DNA of 64,000 bases, taken from positions 416,001 through 480,000 of the forward strand of contig JAOZFT010000004.1 in assembly GCA_027492035.1 (NCBI GenBank), given 5' to 3'. The notes below the pieces were generated by a model that saw nothing but the letters and a program-made list of their open reading frames with translations, searched no databases and was not told where the DNA came from. Source of the stretch: Thermoproteota archaeon (GTDB lineage: Archaea > Korarchaeota > JAOZGF01 > JAOZFZ01). Positions 3,964 to 38,929 of this stretch are shown in pieces. How positions within the stretch are numbered: position 1 is the first letter of the stretch; the number at the start of each line of letters is the position of its first letter. The position numbers were made by a program, and so were the translations under genes.

Positions 3964-4054
3964 TGGGCCCGGCGGGATTTTCAGATTCCTCCCTTTGAAC
4001 CCGCGACACCCGGGTTAAAAGCCCGGTGCTCTAGCCTTGCTGAGCTACGGGCCC
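3964..4054 (-). tRNA. tRNA-Lys(UUU) with 16-nt T-loop intron (3978-3993, position 59/60)
   Basis: GGGCCCG acceptor stem, CCGGG-CTTTTAA-CCCGG anticodon arm; TTCAAA|intron|T with TTCA/TGAA central helix. Confidence 0.92.
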
Positions 4055-4118: not shown

Positions 4119-4237
4119 TCCCGTCGGCAGGATTTGAACCTGCGAACCTGCCGGTTTCTGCATGGGCGACTGCTGTCGAAACCTCCTCCTCTAGAGGTTT
4201 CTACAGCCGGCCGCTCTACCAACTGAGCTACGACGGG
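4119..4237 (-). tRNA. tRNA-Tyr(GUA) with 45-nt intron at 37/38 (4156-4200)
   Basis: CCCGTCG/CGACGGG acceptor (C1-G72), GCCGG-CTGTAG|intron|A-CCGGC, CTGT/GCAG helix, GGTTCAAATCC T arm. Confidence 0.92.
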
Positions 4238-6477: not shown

Positions 6478-6660
6478 GTTGGGTAAGTTTGTGTAGGGCT
6501 GGGGTAGTCCAAAACCGCTCCTGTGGAGGCTGAAATCTCTACGGCCCGCCTTCCACACAGGTTGTAGAGAAGGAGTTCCACTTGCTGAAACCTCCATTGT
6601 GAATGGAGGAAAATCATGCTTGGTTGCTGAAGTAGAAAACCTTCTATGAAGGTTGGGTAA
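6478..6660 (+). ncRNA. Putative structured RNA of unknown class (alternatively an 86-aa minus-strand ORF, 6405-6665)
   Basis: Three hairpins each preceded by GCTGAA; G-U pairs favour the + strand; more GC-rich than typical intergenic DNA here. Confidence 0.35.
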
Positions 6661-6661
6661 T

Positions 6662-7294
6662 TCATACACTTACACCTACTTCTGTTTCAAAATCTTTGGC
6701 TGTTAAGTTAATCTCTCCATCGGGCGGTATCTCCCCTCTCTCCCTTAAAATTTGCCGCGCTAAAACCCAGTAAATTAATGCTAAAGATTTTCTGCCTTTG
6801 TTGTTAGCTGGAATTATGAAATCAACAAAAGTTGTTTGATTATTTGTGTCACAAAGGGCTATAACCATTATCCCTTCCTTAGCCGCTTCAATCATTACTC
6901 TTTTATCGAGTTTTGGATCTGAAATAAACACAACTTCTGGTTCTATGTAGTCCTCTGAAAGATAGTTAGTGAATTTTCCAGGTGGAGTTCTGCCAGCTAC
7001 AGCTTGGAAACCTGTTATTTCACTGAATTTCTTCACAGGTTTTAAAGCATAAATTCTGGAGGAAGTTACAAATACTTCTCCTGGTTTAAATCTTGCTAAA
7101 TATTTTGCAGCCACTCTAATTCTTTCATCTATCTTCCTTATATTTAAAACATAAAGGCCGTCTGGTCTTAAAGAGTAAATGAATTTTCGCATGGGTTTAG
7201 TAGCTATCTTTGTCCCTATATGTACCCCTGCCTTTAAATAAACACTTCTTTCCACTAAAAAGGTGTATCTTTCCTTTCTGCTTTCTGTAGGCAT
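6662..7294 (-). CDS. rps2: 30S ribosomal protein S2 (uS2)
   Basis: YLKAGVHIGT, RPDGLYVL, GRTPPGKFTN, ALCDT, IPANNKGRKSLA. Confidence 0.97.
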   Translation of the reverse strand: MPTESRKERYTFLVERSVYLKAGVHIGTKIATKPMRKFIYSLRPDGLYVLNIRKIDERIRVAAKYLARFKPGEVFVTSSRIYALKPVKKFSEITGFQAVAGRTPPGKFTNYLSEDYIEPEVVFISDPKLDKRVMIEAAKEGIMVIALCDTNNQTTFVDFIIPANNKGRKSLALIYWVLARQILRERGEIPPDGEINLTAKDFETEVGVSV

Positions 7295-7532
7295 TTATTC
7301 ACCTTCGTTTTCTTCTCTTTTTTCGTAGGCTAATATTTCATCTGCCAAGTCTAAATGTGTCAAAAACATCCTTCTGCAGCAGTATCTTTTTATTCCTAAT
7401 TCATCTAAGGCTTCTTTTTTACTTTTCCCTTGCTTAAGTAATTTAAGGTAATCCTCCCAAAGATGACCTATAAGTTTTCCACAGGTGAAGCACCTTCCGC
7501 GTCATTCAACATGACTTTACGGGTATATGCAT
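7295..7532 (-). CDS. rpoN: RNA polymerase subunit N (Rpo10), two exons: 7532-7517 and 7494-7295; 71 aa after splicing
   Basis: Spliced product [21 protein letters not shown]...LDELGIKRYCCRRMFLTH...; expected position between rps9 and rps2; absent from the ORF track because the intron carries a stop. Confidence 0.93.
7495..7516 (-). other. 22-nt BHB intron in rpoN mRNA
   Basis: CCGU-[AAA]-GUCAU-guuga-AUGAC-GCGG-[AAG]; cutting after bulge nt 2 joins GTA A|GG TGC (Val-Arg-Cys). Confidence 0.88.
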
Positions 7533-7548
7533 CCCTAAACCCCCTTTT

Positions 7549-7971
7549 TTATCTTTTCGATTTCTGGAACCTCGCTCTTGCTCCTCTCCCTCCGAATTTC
7601 TTGCTTTCTTTCAATCTTGCATCTTCAACTAACATAAACCTGTCATATTCTAAGAATTTATTTTTTAAGGTTTCTCTCGTTTTTTCATCCTTAATCCATT
7701 TAAGAAGAGCTCTTGAAATAGCTACTTGAACTGCTTCAGCTTGTCCCATGTAACCTCCCCCCTTGGCTTTAGCCTTTATGTCTATATTCTTTGTAATTTC
7801 CTCCCCAGCTAATAAAAGGGGCTCCATTATTTTCCATTTCGCAATTTCAGGTTGAAATATCTCAAGTGGGATATTGTTTATTTTTACCTTCCCTTTCCCT
7901 TTTTTAATCGTAACAGAAGCTCTTGCTGTCTTTCTTTTTGCACTTGCGAAAACAAATTCTCCGTTTACCAT
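7549..7971 (-). CDS. rps9: 30S ribosomal protein S9 (uS9)
   Basis: KRKTARA, GGGYMGQAEA, YDRFMLVED, KKFGGRGARARFQKS. Confidence 0.97.
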   Translation of the reverse strand: MVNGEFVFASAKRKTARASVTIKKGKGKVKINNIPLEIFQPEIAKWKIMEPLLLAGEEITKNIDIKAKAKGGGYMGQAEAVQVAISRALLKWIKDEKTRETLKNKFLEYDRFMLVEDARLKESKKFGGRGARARFQKSKR

Positions 7972-7974
7972 TCC

Positions 7975-8430
7975 TTAACTCATCCTCCAATCGCTCGTTA
8001 GCTCCGCTATCTCCCTTAAAGTTATCGTAGAACTTCTTACACTTAATTTTGAACTGGTTAATGAATCCACTTTCTCTTTTTTAACATTTTCAAGTTCTGC
8101 AGGTACCCCTAAAAAAACTCTTAACATTTTGTATGCCTGTCTCCCCTTCCCCTTTTTGTAAGGAAGCATTCCTCTAACTGTTCTCTTAAACAACCTATCT
8201 GGTCTTGCATAGTAAAATGGCCCTTTTCGAGGGTTAGCGAGGTTTTTTCTCCATTTCCTCTTTAAATACTCCCTTAAAACCTTTTGCCTCTTTCCACTCA
8301 CTACTATTTTTTCTGCATTAACTACAGCCACTTTTTTACCGTTTAACAACTTTTTTGCTACATATGAAGCCAATCTGCCCAGTATTGTTTGCTCTCCATC
8401 CAGTACAATGTCGAAATTCACTTTGTTCAC
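7975..8430 (-). CDS. rpl13: 50S ribosomal protein L13 (uL13)
   Basis: ILGRLASYVAKKLL, VVNAEKIVVSG, RTVRGMLPYK. Confidence 0.97.
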   Translation of the reverse strand: MNKVNFDIVLDGEQTILGRLASYVAKKLLNGKKVAVVNAEKIVVSGKRQKVLREYLKRKWRKNLANPRKGPFYYARPDRLFKRTVRGMLPYKKGKGRQAYKMLRVFLGVPAELENVKKEKVDSLTSSKLSVRSSTITLREIAELTSDWRMS

Positions 8431-8789
8431 CTTAAAATTTTAATATTTGATCCCTTAGGGTTTAATTCGGCAATTTCTGTCAGTTTTAAAGCTCTTCCTT
8501 TTGCCTCCACTATTTTCTCAACTGCCCTTTTTGAGAAGGAGTAAGCTGCTACATTCACTTCATGTTTCAGGGTTCCCCCACCAAGTACCTTACCAGGCAC
8601 TATCACATATTCTCCTTTACCAGTTAATCTATCTATTTTACTTAAGTTCACCACTATCCTCTTTCTTTTGCTCCTTGAAAGGAGTTCAGCTACTCTTCTC
8701 CAGATCTTAGCCTTTTCTTCCCTTGATTTCATTTTAAGGAATGTTATCAACTCTTTCAGTTCTTCACTGGCAGGTTCTTTCTTTACCAA
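8427..8789 (-). CDS. rpl18e: 50S ribosomal protein L18e (eL18)
   Basis: KIWRRVAELL, VNLSKI, VPGKVLGGG, AAYSFS, NPKGSNIKIL. Confidence 0.96.
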   Translation of the reverse strand: MVKKEPASEELKELITFLKMKSREEKAKIWRRVAELLSRSKRKRIVVNLSKIDRLTGKGEYVIVPGKVLGGGTLKHEVNVAAYSFSKRAVEKIVEAKGRALKLTEIAELNPKGSNIKILR

Positions 8790-26895: not shown

Positions 26896-28032
26896 TTGGA
26901 AAATATGTCAGAGGTTAAAAAAATGGCGGAAGCCGAAGTTACTTTAAGCGGTGAACTAAAAGGGAGAAAGGTATTCTTAGAAGGTCCAAAAAAGTCCATA
27001 CAAGAGTACATAAATAAAGGCTTTGGTTATTGGGAGGCTGACTCTGAAACTTTAGAGCTTCACCTCATAGAAGCCCTTTATCTCCTAGAAAAAAATAAGA
27101 TAAATCTTTATAAAGGGGAAAAACAGTTGGAAAGGAGCGATTTACTTAATGAATTGAAGGAGAACGAAAATGATTTCTTAAGATACCTTGTTTACAAAGA
27201 TTTAAGGGATAGAGGGAGGATAGTAAAGATTGGACCCTTAGATTTCCTTAGGCTCTTTGTTGGCCAGTATAAACCTGAGGATTCTGTTTCAAGATATTTT
27301 ATTTTCGCTTTATCTGAAGAAAAGCCTATGCTGTTTCAAACACTTACGAAGTTAATAAACGAAAGCTCGAAACTTAGGAAAGAACTACTGTTAGCCATAG
27401 TCAACGATGAAGGAATAATCTCTTACTATGTTACACGGAAAATAGATATTTTATCAATTGATGTTCCACATTTAGATTTTGAAAATGTTGAAGCTTACCT
27501 GTACGGTGACCGTTTAGTCATTTGGAACATAGAAAAAGCCAGAGAACTGTATGAGAAAGGTTTTTTCGGGCATCCGATAGGGATAAGGAAACCTAAATCC
27601 TTTGAGTTTGAACAACCATCTCTCCTGTCTCTCTACGAAGCCCATTACTTGCTGAAAAAGAAAAAAATAAAAGTCATCGACCCAAAAAACGGTAAAGAAC
27701 TGGATCTGGAATCTTTCGTAGAGAAAGCTAAAAGTTTAAGGGAAAGGTTTGACATACGTTGTCAAGTATATGACTACTGGCGTGACAAGGGCTATGTGGT
27801 GAAAAGTGGTTCACTGTACGGTGTAGACTTTATAATCTATTTAAGAGGCCCTGGAATGGATGAACATTCAAAGTACATGAACCATGTTTATTCAGAAAGT
27901 TCAAGTTTCATACCCTTAGAAATTATTAGGGCGGGAAGAGTAGCTACTACTGTAAGGAAAAAACTAATCTTATCTTTATTAAACAAAAAGGGGGAGATAA
28001 ACTTTTACAAGTTTTCTTGGCATAAACCTTAA
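26896..28032 (+). CDS. endA: tRNA-splicing endonuclease, two fused units (structural plus catalytic)
   Basis: Unit 1 LHLIEALYL/YLVYKDLRDRG; unit 2 with catalytic Y (SGSLYG), H (DEHS), K (VRKK) and GHPIGIRKPK loop. Confidence 0.95.
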   Translation: MENMSEVKKMAEAEVTLSGELKGRKVFLEGPKKSIQEYINKGFGYWEADSETLELHLIEALYLLEKNKINLYKGEKQLERSDLLNELKENENDFLRYLVYKDLRDRGRIVKIGPLDFLRLFVGQYKPEDSVSRYFIFALSEEKPMLFQTLTKLINESSKLRKELLLAIVNDEGIISYYVTRKIDILSIDVPHLDFENVEAYLYGDRLVIWNIEKARELYEKGFFGHPIGIRKPKSFEFEQPSLLSLYEAHYLLKKKKIKVIDPKNGKELDLESFVEKAKSLRERFDIRCQVYDYWRDKGYVVKSGSLYGVDFIIYLRGPGMDEHSKYMNHVYSESSSFIPLEIIRAGRVATTVRKKLILSLLNKKGEINFYKFSWHKP

Positions 28033-31816: not shown

Positions 31817-31911
31817 TGGACCGGGTGGGATTTGAACCCACGACCTCCGCGAATCTGCTTTAAAGATTTAAATCGCCAACGCGGCGTTCATTCCAACTGA
31901 ACTACCGGCCC
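31817..31911 (-). tRNA. tRNA-Ala(GGC) with 21-nt intron at 37/38 (31853-31873)
   Basis: GGGCCGG/CCGGTCC acceptor with G3-U70, CCGCG-TTGGCG|intron|T-CGCGG; relaxed BHB (TTGG/GCAG). Confidence 0.9.
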
Positions 31912-37477: not shown

Positions 37478-38929
37478 TTAACCTTTCACAACCCCTACAG
37501 GTTTCATCCTGACTACTAACAGAGAAACTCCTGCTTTATGCATGGATAAAGTAACTTGATCGACATTTTTATAGCTTCCAGGTGCCTCTTCTGCAGCTAC
37601 AGCGAAAGATGCAGGTTTTACATAGATCCCTCTGCTCTGGAGTTCACTTACTACCTGCCTACCTGAATACCTCCTCTTCGCTGCTGCTCTGCTTAAAGTC
37701 CTCCCGCTTCCATGACATGTTGAACCGAATGTTTCCTCCATTGCTTTCTTTGTTCCAATTAAAACATAAGATGCAGTGCCCATTGAACCGGGAATTAATA
37801 CAGGTTGTCCAATTTCTCTATATTCTATAGGTATTTCTTTCCTCCCTGGCCCGAAAGCACGTGTAGCTCCTTTTCTATGCACATAAACCCTAATTTTTTC
37901 CCCATCCACTTCATGTTCTTCAAGTTTCGCGATGTTATGAGCAACATCATAAACTACCTTCATTCCAAGGTCTTCAGAGCTTGCGTTGAAGATTTTCTCA
38001 AAGGTTTCCCTTGTCCAATGTGAAATAAATTGTCGATTAGCGAAGGCATAATTTACTGCACATTTCATTGCTTTAATGTAATCCTCAGCCTCTCTCGACT
38101 TCACATATGCGCAGGCAAGCTGTTTATCCGGTAACTTAAAATCCAGTTTGTTTGAATAGCCAAGCATAACCTTTAAGTAATCTGTTGCTATTTGATGACC
38201 GAATCCCCTGCTTCCCGTGTGGAGCATGACAACAATTTGTCCAAGTTTTTGGAAACCAAGTTTCTCAGCTATTTCTTTATTGAAGATTTTGTCTACAACT
38301 TGAATTTCTAAGAAGTGATTACCTGACCCGAGGCTCCCCAATTGGGGGCAGCCTCTTTGTTTAGCTCTTGAGCTAACCTTAGCGGGGTCAGCTCCTTCCA
38401 TCTTTCCGTTTTCTTCAATATATCTTTCATCACTCTCTAAACCGTAACCATGCTCAATAGCCCATTGGGCACCTTCAACACAGATTTCCTCTATCTCTCT
38501 AACCGTGAAACGGATTTTCCCTTTACTTCCCAAACCTGAAGGCACATTTTCAAACAATTTATCAATTAAATTTTTCAATTTAGGCTTCACATCCTCAAAA
38601 GTAAGAGAAGTAACCATTACCCTAACTCCGCAGTTAATATCGAAACCCACTCCTCCAGGGGAAATAATTCCCTCTTCAGTGTCAAAGGCAGCAACCCCGC
38701 CAATGGGAAAACCATAACCCCAATGTATGTCAGGTAAACCTATAGCATATTTCTGTATCCCAGGGAGCATGGTTATGTTAGCTAACTGATCTAAGGCTCC
38801 TTTCTCAACTCCTTGGAGCAAAGATTTTAAAGCAATAACTAAACCCTCTGTTTTCATGCCTTTCTTATAACTTTTAGGAAGTAACCATCGCACTTCATCT
38901 ATTTGTTTCAGGAAAGACTCAACTCCCAT
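37478..38929 (-). CDS. rtcB: RNA-splicing ligase RtcB
   Basis: PDIHWGYGFPIGGV, GFDINCG, GSGNHFLE, HTGSRG, DVAHN, VHRKGAT, STCHGSGR, EEAPGSYK. Confidence 0.97.
   Translation of the reverse strand: MGVESFLKQIDEVRWLLPKSYKKGMKTEGLVIALKSLLQGVEKGALDQLANITMLPGIQKYAIGLPDIHWGYGFPIGGVAAFDTEEGIISPGGVGFDINCGVRVMVTSLTFEDVKPKLKNLIDKLFENVPSGLGSKGKIRFTVREIEEICVEGAQWAIEHGYGLESDERYIEENGKMEGADPAKVSSRAKQRGCPQLGSLGSGNHFLEIQVVDKIFNKEIAEKLGFQKLGQIVVMLHTGSRGFGHQIATDYLKVMLGYSNKLDFKLPDKQLACAYVKSREAEDYIKAMKCAVNYAFANRQFISHWTRETFEKIFNASSEDLGMKVVYDVAHNIAKLEEHEVDGEKIRVYVHRKGATRAFGPGRKEIPIEYREIGQPVLIPGSMGTASYVLIGTKKAMEETFGSTCHGSGRTLSRAAAKRRYSGRQVVSELQSRGIYVKPASFAVAAEEAPGSYKNVDQVTLSMHKAGVSLLVVRMKPVGVVKG

What the first reader, a model, noticed from the sequence alone, without database searches (positions are those of the whole stretch)
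7495..7516. 22-nt BHB intron in rpoN (RNA polymerase subunit Rpo10)
Minus strand: ATGCATATAC CCGT AA|A GTCAT gttga ATGAC GCGG AA|G GTGC. Unspliced it reads MHIPVKSC-stop. Spliced it gives 71-aa [12 protein letters not shown]...RYCCRRM, with the junction inside the Arg codon just before the Zn-binding CxxC. The helix is CCGU/GCGG with bulges AAA and AAG. The gene sits in its conserved position between rps9 and rps2 and the rest of the frame is intact, so it is unlikely to be a pseudogene. Splicing would act on a polycistronic ribosomal-protein mRNA and make RNA polymerase assembly depend on EndA/RtcB (inference).
Basis: partly seen in the sequence, partly recalled or inferred. Interest (0 to 1): 0.9.

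Follow-up and report, generated by a model that had tools for sequence, protein, structure and literature searches.

The report
Splicing-type intron in archaeal rpoN gene
The only gene for a small, essential RNA polymerase subunit in this archaeon is interrupted by 22 bases that fold into the signal cut by the tRNA-splicing enzyme, so the message probably has to be spliced before the protein can be made, something reported so far for only one other archaeal protein-coding frame.

Summary
On the minus strand, rpoN (Rpo10) runs 7532-7295 and is interrupted after codon 5 by 22 nt (7516-7495). These fold into a strict bulge-helix-bulge: 4-bp helix CCGU/GCGG, bulges AAA and AAG, 5-bp inner hairpin. 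Cutting after the second base of each bulge restores the P-V-R-C N-terminus seen in 29 of 30 relatives' loci (71 aa). Unspliced, the frame stops after 8 codons, exon 2 has no start codon, and no single frameshift can join the frames. It is the only rpoN in the genome. A sister genus carries a 22-nt insert at the same place: 7 of 22 bases differ, every pair is kept, and two pairs are compensatory. The other 39 rpoN genes found in the phylum are uninterrupted. The window encodes the splicing endonuclease and RtcB. The same genome's cbf5 has a 23-nt BHB intron at the catalytic Asp codon, as do 15 more genomes of the phylum. No RNA data could be obtained, so splicing itself is inferred. Verdict: most likely a real endonuclease-type mRNA intron in a new host gene. 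This is a new member of a known kind, and none of my literature searches found a report of it.

The parts
7517..7532 (-). rpoN (Rpo10) exon 1: ATG plus 4 codons (MHIPV) plus the first base (A) of the junction Arg codon.
   Evidence: A 16-nt spacer with a G-rich, Shine-Dalgarno-like run separates it from the rps9 stop at 7551-7549.
7495..7516 (-). 22-nt BHB intron: third base of the 5' bulge, inner hairpin, 3' strand of the central helix, and the first two bases of the 3' bulge.
   Evidence: It is unique in the genome at up to 3 mismatches.
7295..7494 (-). rpoN exon 2: GG of the Arg codon, then CFTCGK...RYCCRRM... and the stop TAA (7297-7295).
   Evidence: (RNA_pol_N positions 7-58, E 1.6e-25).
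7490..7530 (-). Whole hBHBh' motif. Outer helix UAC 7525-7523 with GUG 7493-7491; in the MFE fold the outer helix is GCAU 7530-7527 with GUGC 7493-7490 instead. Central helix CCGU 7522-7519 with GCGG 7500-7497. 5' bulge AAA 7518-7516. 3' bulge AAG 7496-7494. Inner helix GUCAU 7515-7511 with AUGAC 7505-7501. Loop GUUGA 7510-7506.
7549..7971 (-). rps9, immediately upstream of rpoN.
   Evidence: Ribosomal_S9, E 1.3e-38.
6662..7294 (-). rps2. Its ATG directly follows the rpoN stop codon.
   Evidence: Ribosomal_S2, E 3.5e-21.
26896..28032 (+). Splicing endonuclease EndA, 378 aa. One chain carries two tandem repeats, each an N-terminal domain plus a catalytic domain.
   Evidence: The C-terminal half is closest to crenarchaeal catalytic alpha subunits (2cv8_A, E 3.9e-35). 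The N-terminal half weakly matches structural beta subunits (2zyz_A, E 4.9e-07).
37481..38788 (-). RtcB RNA ligase, the enzyme that would join the two exons.
   Evidence: PF01139 positions 1-426, E 5.5e-174, open frame 492 aa, no internal stops.
3964..4054 (-). tRNA-Lys(UUU) gene with a 16-nt strict BHB intron in the T-loop. It serves as an internal control for the cut rule.
   Evidence: Rfam tRNA, 91 nt against a 71-position model. In one search, the same cut rule gives a 75-nt sequence that ARAGORN calls tRNA-Lys(ttt).

Best explanation
The 22 nt at 7516-7495 are an archaeal endonuclease-type (bulge-helix-bulge) intron in the coding region of the single rpoN gene.

Proposed mechanism:
1. The gene is transcribed with the neighbouring ribosomal-protein genes (inferred).
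2. The region around codons 3-8 folds into an hBHBh' motif (shown by folding).
3. The splicing endonuclease encoded at 26896-28032 cuts after the second base of each 3-nt bulge (inferred; the rule is validated in silico on a tRNA and on cbf5 of the same genome).
4. RtcB, encoded at 37481-38788, joins the exons (inferred).
5. The spliced mRNA reads ...CCC GUA A|GG UGC... and encodes a 71-aa Rpo10 with the conserved P-V-R-C-x-x-C start (computed).

Unspliced RNA can give only an 8-residue peptide. The intron was probably gained once, in the ancestor of the family that holds this genome and its sister genus.
For: (1) Frame. Removal at the canonical bulge positions gives [12 protein letters not shown]... 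of 71 aa. In 29 of 30 relatives' loci the N-terminus is ...P-[V/I]-R-C....

(2) Structure. The BHB is the MFE fold in G000, and its core persists in a 76-nt context.

(3) Conservation. G001, in the same family but another genus, has a 22-nt insert at the same codon. Seven of the 22 bases differ. That is about as diverged as exon 2 (18 of 60 bases), yet all 9 pairs involving the intron are kept and 2 of the 5 inner-helix pairs are compensatory. Seven random substitutions keep all 9 pairs in 3,735 of 500,000 trials. Sliding the register drops pairing from 92.9% to 21-50%.

(4) Distribution. Of the 41 genomes with an rpoN match among the phylum's 43, only G000 (model 5-58) and G001 (model 6-58) lack the N-terminus. 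The other 39 start at model position 1. G002, in the same order, is intronless.

(5) No way round. There is a single rpoN copy, no start codon in the exon-2 frame in either genome, and in G000 the frame-0 stop lies upstream of the last stop of the exon-2 frame.

(6) Machinery. EndA and RtcB are both present.

(7) Precedent in the same cell line. cbf5 of G000 has a 23-nt BHB at the catalytic Asp codon, G001 has a 15-nt one, and 16 of 17 interrupted cbf5 loci in the phylum have exactly one in-register BHB there.

(8) Specificity. 135 sites passed the relaxed genome scan. Of these I re-folded 30, picked by eye as those with the shorter introns. Only rpoN and cbf5 have the BHB as the free MFE.
Against: No RNA-level evidence exists. 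No RNA run was listed, so neither a spliced junction nor a circular intron has been seen.

Only two intron-bearing sequences exist. The shuffle control is therefore not significant: 121 of 500 shuffles reach the observed covariation.

In G001 the MFE fold is not the BHB. A 7-bp outer helix AAUACCC/GGGUGUU competes with it. In a 76-nt context the explicit BHB conformer scores -12.6 against an MFE of -24.8, and in G000 the strict conformer scores -8.2 against -21.2.

The contiguous outer helix in G000 is only 3 bp.

BHB-like motifs as such are common in this AT-rich genome, at about 5e-4 per position.

Both genomes are metagenome-assembled and 93-94% complete, so an unassembled second copy cannot be strictly excluded.

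The 5' splice site lies 16 nt from the start codon, inside the footprint of an initiating ribosome (recalled knowledge). How the endonuclease gains access on a translated operon mRNA is unexplained.
Confidence: 0.85

Rival explanations
1. rpoN is a pseudogene, or a gene inactivated by a 22-nt hairpin insertion, and Rpo10 function is dispensable or supplied from elsewhere.
For: Unspliced, the frame ends after 8 codons. Both genomes are incomplete MAGs at 93% and 94%.
Against: The downstream 65 codons are intact and score 89.5 bits against RNA_pol_N. The same arrangement survives in a second genus at about 30% nucleotide divergence, with an intact exon 2 and a preserved structure. Only one copy is found. 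rpoN is found in 41 of 43 genomes of the phylum, and the two misses are 66% and 71% complete.
Confidence: 0.04
2. The insert stays in the mRNA and the ribosome gets across it by recoding, either a programmed frameshift or a translational hop (bypass) over the hairpin.
For: A stable hairpin followed by an in-frame stop just after the break resembles what I recall of bypass and frameshift sites. In G001 alone, a single +1 shift between the last stop of the exon-2 frame and the frame-0 stop would be geometrically possible.
Against: In G000 the frame-0 stop (nt 25-27 from the ATG) precedes the last stop in the exon-2 frame (nt 29-31), so no single shift can connect them. For a hop, the codon before the landing point (GGA) does not match the take-off codon GUA. 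The repeated AAG would land in the wrong frame, and that repeat is absent in G001. A shift in G001 would insert 7 residues and replace the invariant V-R before the Cys. The conserved 4-bp helix with two 3-nt bulges is not needed for recoding.
Confidence: 0.03
3. The insert is an assembly or sequencing artefact of a metagenome-assembled genome.
For: The genome is a 42-contig MAG, and I could not lay reads on it because no runs were listed.
Against: An independent MAG of another genus has an insert of the same length at the same site that differs in 7 of 22 bases. An artefact would not show compensatory changes. The same genome shows the known cbf5 intron at its published position.
Confidence: 0.02
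4. The BHB is cut, but mainly as a regulatory switch. Cleavage without efficient ligation, or slow splicing, throttles Rpo10 synthesis rather than simply maturing the mRNA.
For: In G000 the MFE outer helix includes bases of the AUG (GCAU 7530-7527), and the 5' splice site is 16 nt from the start codon. [quoted passage not shown]
Against: The masking of the start codon is not conserved. In G001 the likely GTG start lies 18 nt upstream of the central helix and outside the outer helix. Nothing here measures rates. This rival is a refinement of the best explanation, not an alternative to splicing.
Confidence: 0.06

Closest known systems
cbf5 pre-mRNA BHB intron of Crenarchaeota (Watanabe 2002, recalled through citations; Yokobori 2009, PMC2738675, passages read).
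   Same: It is a short intron (16-44 bp in that paper) inside a protein-coding frame, flanked by a BHB motif. It must be removed to make the protein, it has a lineage-specific distribution, and gene callers miss it. The same genome here carries one at the published position, between the first and second letter of the catalytic Asp codon.
   Different: The host gene and site differ: rpoN codon 6 (Arg) against the cbf5 catalytic Asp. There is no sequence similarity between the two introns of G000. The rpoN intron is found in 2 genomes of one family, against 16 genomes for cbf5 in this phylum. The first exon is only 16 nt. cbf5 splicing has experimental support; this intron has none.
BHB intron in the 5'UTR of the Haloferax volcanii HVO_1309 mRNA (Schwarz 2020, PMC7714728, passages read).
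   Same: It is an mRNA substrate of the archaeal splicing endonuclease outside tRNA and rRNA.
   Different: It lies in the untranslated leader, not in the reading frame, and it was confirmed in vivo and in vitro.
Archaeal tRNA BHB introns, including those at non-canonical positions (review PMC4090602, passage read).
   Same: The motif definition is the same: a 4-bp helix flanked by two 3-nt bulges. The size range is the same (medians of 12-25 nt), and presumably so are the enzymes. A 16-nt T-loop intron of tRNA-Lys lies 3.5 kb away in the window.
   Different: The substrate is an mRNA with no tRNA body, and the reading frame rather than an RNA fold is what is restored.
Unconventional cytoplasmic splicing of HAC1/XBP1 mRNA in eukaryotes (recalled; RtcB's role in XBP1 splicing is mentioned in the abstract of PMC8718801 in the listing).
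   Same: It works alike: a protein endonuclease cuts at paired stem-loops in an mRNA, an RtcB-type ligase joins the exons, and the reading frame changes.
   Different: The endonuclease is different (Ire1), the signal is different, and the event is stress-regulated. This comparison concerns mechanism only, not membership.

Membership tests
Archaeal BHB (splicing-endonuclease-type) intron | A 4-bp central helix flanked by two 3-nt bulges on opposite strands. | tested here: met
   CCGU/GCGG with bulges AAA and AAG is in the MFE fold. All 4 central pairs are present in both genomes. The definition comes from PMC4090602.
Archaeal BHB (splicing-endonuclease-type) intron | Flanking helices on both sides (the strict hBHBh' form). 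| tested here: met
   The inner helix is 5 bp in both genomes. The outer helix is 3 bp contiguous in G000, or 4 bp with a 4-nt internal loop in the MFE fold, and 5 bp in G001. In G001 a rival outer pairing is more stable.
Archaeal BHB (splicing-endonuclease-type) intron | Cuts at the symmetric bulge positions give a functional product. | tested here: met
   In silico only. The spliced frame gives P-V-R-C and 71 aa. The same rule gives a 75-nt tRNA-Lys and GTLDP in cbf5.
Archaeal BHB (splicing-endonuclease-type) intron | The structure is maintained by covariation among homologues. | tested here: inconclusive
   There are 2 compensatory pairs and 0 disrupted pairs among the 9 pairs involving the intron. 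With only 2 sequences, 121 of 500 shuffles score as high. The substitution simulation gives 0.75%.
Archaeal BHB (splicing-endonuclease-type) intron | The splicing endonuclease and an RtcB-type ligase are encoded. | tested here: met
Archaeal BHB (splicing-endonuclease-type) intron | Spliced RNA, or excised or circular intron, is observed. | not testable with these tools
   No RNA holder was listed, so read laying could not be used.
cbf5-type pre-mRNA intron (same insertion event as in Crenarchaeota) | It is located in cbf5, between the first and second letter of the catalytic Asp codon. | tested here: not met
   The rpoN insert lies in a different gene and codon. The genome's own cbf5 intron does meet this feature.
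Programmed ribosomal frameshift | A single shift connects the upstream and downstream frames without crossing a stop. | tested here: not met
   In G000 the frame-0 stop precedes the last stop of the exon-2 frame.
Translational bypass (hop) | Matching take-off and landing codons place the ribosome in the downstream frame. | tested here: not met
   There is no GUN before AGG. The AAG...AAG repeat lands in the wrong frame and is absent in G001. The feature list for bypass is recalled, not taken from a call.

The most novel reading that the evidence does not exclude
The rpoN intron is a de novo, selectively maintained gain of an endonuclease-type intron in an essential transcription gene. It would make the supply of RNA polymerase depend on the tRNA-splicing enzymes (EndA and RtcB), coupling transcription capacity to tRNA maturation capacity. 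The splice site sits inside the footprint of the initiating ribosome, so splicing and translation initiation would compete on each transcript. With cbf5 introns in 16 genomes of the same small phylum, this lineage would be a place where such introns actively colonise protein genes, a living model for how protein-gene introns can arise without a spliceosome.
Probability: 0.2. Interest if true: 0.8.

Novelty: new member of a known kind. Interest (0 to 1): 0.66.

Why it matters
For more than twenty years, cbf5 has been the only archaeal protein-coding frame known to be interrupted by a BHB intron. The 2020 study I read still says so, apart from one 5'UTR case.

A second host gene, and one that encodes a core RNA polymerase subunit, would show three things:
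- Endonuclease-type introns can settle in other essential genes.
- Gene callers silently lose such genes. Here no ORF of at least 30 aa is called for rpoN.
- Marker-gene and completeness estimates for such lineages can be biased.

It also offers a compact substrate of about 45 nt for testing how an mRNA is spliced in a cell where transcription and translation are coupled.

Tried and rejected
Expression data: the look-up of sequencing runs on window 6600-8500 listed no RNA holder. This says nothing about expression.

More carriers: the genome contigs pattern scan found only the G001 contig. Two metagenome-contig scans, one with the strict pattern and one with a relaxed pattern, found 0. Both patterns are tied to this sequence family, so rpoN introns with other sequences elsewhere in the Archaea are not excluded. 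Only this phylum's 43 genomes could be reached with the genome search.

Genome-wide search for further interrupted genes:
- The loose scan gave 49,127 motifs, 36,766 raw candidates and 828 two-exon candidates, mostly bridges between adjacent genes.
- After the coding filter 503 remained. With an intron of at most 60 nt and E of at most -4, 2 remained: rpoN and C9:121424-121458, which looks like an ordinary gene boundary.
- This strict scan missed cbf5 because of one unpaired base in its outer helix.
- The relaxed scan gave 16,118 motifs, of which 135 passed.
- I re-folded only 30 of the 135, picked by eye as those with the shorter introns, and only the best 14 were printed. The other 105 were not assessed.
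- A candidate on C3 (35 nt, -11.2 kcal/mol) has no Pfam match on either half and was dropped as unresolved.
- A motif-free scan for orphan second exons gave 211 noisy rows, without rpoN in the top 45, and was not used.

Intron mobility: the 22-mer has no second copy in the genome at up to 3 mismatches.

Known RNA families: only tRNAs pass the gathering score in the window. Around the site there is only a chance SNORD91 hit on the other strand, at E 0.7.

Start-codon masking as a conserved regulatory feature was rejected, because it is not conserved in G001.

The hard constraints were not enforced for every candidate. Some printed structures lack the central helix, so those energies are approximate.

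Literature searches: (Rpo10 + intron + archaea: 0 papers), and 70 (rpoN + bulge-helix-bulge: 0 papers). Subscription journals are not covered. The supplements of PMC2738675 (intron sizes per species) are closed and were not seen.

Full report
**What is there**

On the minus strand, rps9 ends at 7549. After a 16-nt G-rich spacer comes an ATG at 7532-7530.
- The frame reads MHIPV, then K-S-C-stop.
- One base out of frame, starting right after a TGA, an open stretch reads [18 protein letters not shown]...RYCCRRM... down to TAA at 7297-7295. The rps2 ATG follows directly at 7294.
- That stretch matches Pfam RNA_pol_N positions 7-58 with E 1.6e-25.
- The neighbours are L18e, L13 and S9 upstream and S2 downstream.
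- No ORF of 30 aa or more is listed for rpoN itself, so ordinary gene calling would lose the gene.

**The motif**

The 48 nt at 7531-7484 fold, as the minimum-free-energy structure, into these parts:
- an outer helix GCAU/GUGC;
- a 4-bp helix CCGU/GCGG;
- two 3-nt bulges, AAA and AAG, on opposite strands;
- an inner 5-bp hairpin GUCAU/AUGAC with the loop GUUGA.

The energy is -13.6 kcal/mol with z -2.2, and 4 of 200 shuffles fold as well. This fits the definition of the archaeal splice signal, a 4-bp helix flanked by two 3-nt bulges (review PMC4090602, passage read). A directly stacked outer helix UAC/GUG of 3 bp is the alternative.

Cutting after the second base of each bulge removes 7516-7495, which is 22 nt. 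It joins ...CCC GUA A to GG UGC..., giving a 71-aa protein that starts [12 protein letters not shown].

I validated the cut rule on two other substrates of the same genome:
- The tRNA-Lys(UUU) gene at 3964-4054(-) has a 16-nt BHB in its T-loop, and the rule gives a 75-nt sequence that ARAGORN calls tRNA-Lys.
- cbf5 is described below.

**Is it more than chance?**

The motif alone is not. Compact strict motifs occur 1870 times in 3,736,386 positions. On one strand of contig C9 there are 296, against 138-165 in block shuffles.

What is rare is a BHB in the single register that repairs the frame:
- 359 of 2,000,000 random 22-mers of genome composition placed at this site form one with an inner helix of at least 4 bp.
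- 127 of 2,000,000 do so with an inner helix of at least 5 bp.
- 226 of 500,000 shuffles of the true insert do so.

The product also reproduces an invariant feature. In 29 of 30 relatives' loci the N-terminus is ...P-[V/I]-R-C-[F/Y]-[T/S]-C-G (in the 30th locus my pattern found no frame).

**Relatives**

The genome (G000: 1.87 Mb, 42 contigs, 93% complete) has one RNA_pol_N match, covering model positions 5-58. The phylum as held contains 43 genomes.
- 41 have a match. The two without are 66% and 71% complete.
- 39 of the 41 start at model position 1.
- Only G000 and G001 are cut short, and G001 matches positions 6-58.

G001 is in the same family but a different genus. Its DNA reads CCGU AAA GCCGU UUUAA ACGGC GCGG AGG GUGU, again 22 nt at the same codon. 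Splicing gives ...[11 protein letters not shown]. G002, in the same order, has an uninterrupted [12 protein letters not shown].

Between G000 and G001, 7 of the 22 intron bases differ. That is about as diverged as exon 2, where 18 of 60 bases differ. The seven differences are distributed as follows:
- 4 are two compensatory pairs in the inner helix (U-A to C-G and A-U to G-C);
- 2 lie in the loop;
- 1 lies in the 3' bulge;
- none breaks a pair.

On the alignment, 26 of 28 cells pair. The two misses are the outermost outer-helix pairs in G000. Sliding the 3' partners by 1-3 columns drops pairing to 21-50%.

With two sequences the shuffle control cannot be significant: 121 of 500 shuffles reach the observed covariation. 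A simulation of 7 random substitutions keeps all nine intron pairs in 3,735 of 500,000 trials.

One point against: in G001 the free MFE is not the BHB but a competing 7-bp outer helix. In 76-nt contexts the explicit BHB conformers are well above the MFE.

**Rivals**

- *Pseudogene.* This is unlikely for a single-copy core RNA polymerase subunit whose second exon and interrupting structure are both preserved across two genera.
- *Alternative start.* There is no ATG, GTG or TTG in the exon-2 frame between the last upstream stop and the Cys motif in either genome.
- *Frameshift.* In G000 the frame-0 stop precedes the last stop in the exon-2 frame, so one shift cannot join them. In G001 one shift could, but it would add 7 residues and destroy the invariant V-R.
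- *Hop.* There are no matching take-off and landing codons in the right frame.
- *Artefact.* Two independent assemblies carry different but structurally equivalent inserts.

**Machinery and precedent in the same lineage**

The window encodes a 378-aa splicing endonuclease with two tandem repeats, each an N-terminal domain plus a catalytic domain. The C-terminal repeat is closest to crenarchaeal catalytic subunits, and the N-terminal repeat weakly matches structural subunits. The window also encodes an intact RtcB.

All three tRNA genes that Rfam finds in the window are long (91, 95 and 119 nt against a 71-position model). ARAGORN without intron search finds none of them.

While checking cbf5 as a control, I found it split in G000.
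- One frame ends ...AGHLGTLDP... and another continues ...NVTGVLPVALG....
- Between them lies a BHB that is the MFE fold: CCCU/AGGG, bulges AGA and AAA, inner CCCCU/AGGGG.
- The cut rule removes 23 nt, between the first and second letter of the catalytic Asp codon.
- That is the position Yokobori et al. give for the crenarchaeal cbf5 intron. They also list Korarchaeum cryptofilum as intronless (PMC2738675, passages).

G001 has a 15-nt version.

Across the phylum, 40 of 43 genomes have a TruB_N match, and 17 of these look interrupted, with internal stops or a truncated match. Of those 17 loci, 16 have exactly one in-register BHB at that codon. The introns are 15-33 nt, and their inner helices differ widely but always pair. 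The 17th locus, G013, is cut by a contig end. So endonuclease-type mRNA introns are established in this clade, and rpoN is a second, younger host.

**Genome-wide specificity**

135 sites pass my relaxed BHB, ORF-merging and coding filters. Of these I re-folded 30, chosen by eye as those with the shorter introns. Only cbf5 (-19.3 kcal/mol) and rpoN (-13.6) have the BHB as the unconstrained MFE. The rest were not resolved, and relaxed motifs may have been missed.

**Comparison with what is known**

[quoted passage not shown] The 2025 endonuclease structure paper cites only the cbf5 papers for protein-coding genes.

Searches for Rpo10 + intron + archaea and for rpoN + bulge-helix-bulge found no paper. 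Three broader searches found no other host gene. The library lacks most subscription journals, and supplements were closed.

**Verdict**

This is most likely a genuine BHB intron in rpoN, gained in the ancestor of one family of a small archaeal phylum. The sister MAG's record calls it a Thermoproteota archaeon. That the phylum is korarchaeal-like is my guess, based on genome sizes and on the intronless cbf5 of one closed 1.6-Mb genome.

It is a new member of a known kind. What is missing is any RNA-level or biochemical evidence. How the endonuclease reaches a site 16 nt from a start codon in a tightly packed operon is an open and interesting question.

Noticed in passing
L037:1494-1516 (+), which is G000 contig C9:310022-310044, outside the window.: cbf5 of this genome is interrupted by a 23-nt BHB intron between the first and second letter of the catalytic Asp codon. 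This is the same position as the published crenarchaeal cbf5 intron. The BHB is the MFE fold at -19.3 kcal/mol.
   Followed up: yes
L048 and L052-L066 (cbf5 loci of G001, G002, G027, G010, G012, G019, G035, G036, G022, G009, G013, G020, G026, G038, G023 and G018).: With G000, 16 of 17 interrupted cbf5 genes in this 43-genome phylum carry one in-register BHB (15-33 nt) at the Asp codon. Genera g4 and g8 are mostly intact. This extends the cbf5 intron well beyond Desulfurococcales and Sulfolobales, and may bear on when it was gained.
   Followed up: partly
Window 3964-4054 (-).: tRNA-Lys(UUU) has a 16-nt strict BHB intron in the T-loop, a non-canonical position. The other two tRNA genes in the window (4119-4237 and 31817-31911, both minus strand) are 119 and 95 nt, and their introns did not fit my strict motif.
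   Followed up: partly
Window 26896-28032 (+).: The splicing endonuclease is a single 378-aa chain. Its N-terminal repeat resembles structural beta subunits and its C-terminal repeat resembles crenarchaeal catalytic alpha subunits, so it looks like a beta-alpha fusion. I did not examine whether it carries the loop linked to broad substrate range.
   Followed up: no
G000 whole genome.: ARAGORN with intron search calls only 23 tRNAs, and 22 of them lie on contig C9 (666 kb of 1.87 Mb). 16 of the 23 are called with introns, some with odd anticodons (Pyl, SeC). Either many tRNAs are missed because of unusual introns, or the other contigs are tRNA-poor.
   Followed up: no
G000 C3:1294-1328 (-), which is L051.: A 35-nt BHB-like motif (-11.2 kcal/mol) would join two overlapping open frames of 144 and 98 aa. 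Neither half has a Pfam match, so it stays unresolved.
   Followed up: partly
Window 7533-7548 (-) and L032 around 958-975.: G001's rpoN has no ATG. The only in-frame start is a GTG that overlaps the rps9 stop codon, which gives three extra N-terminal residues compared with G000.
   Followed up: no
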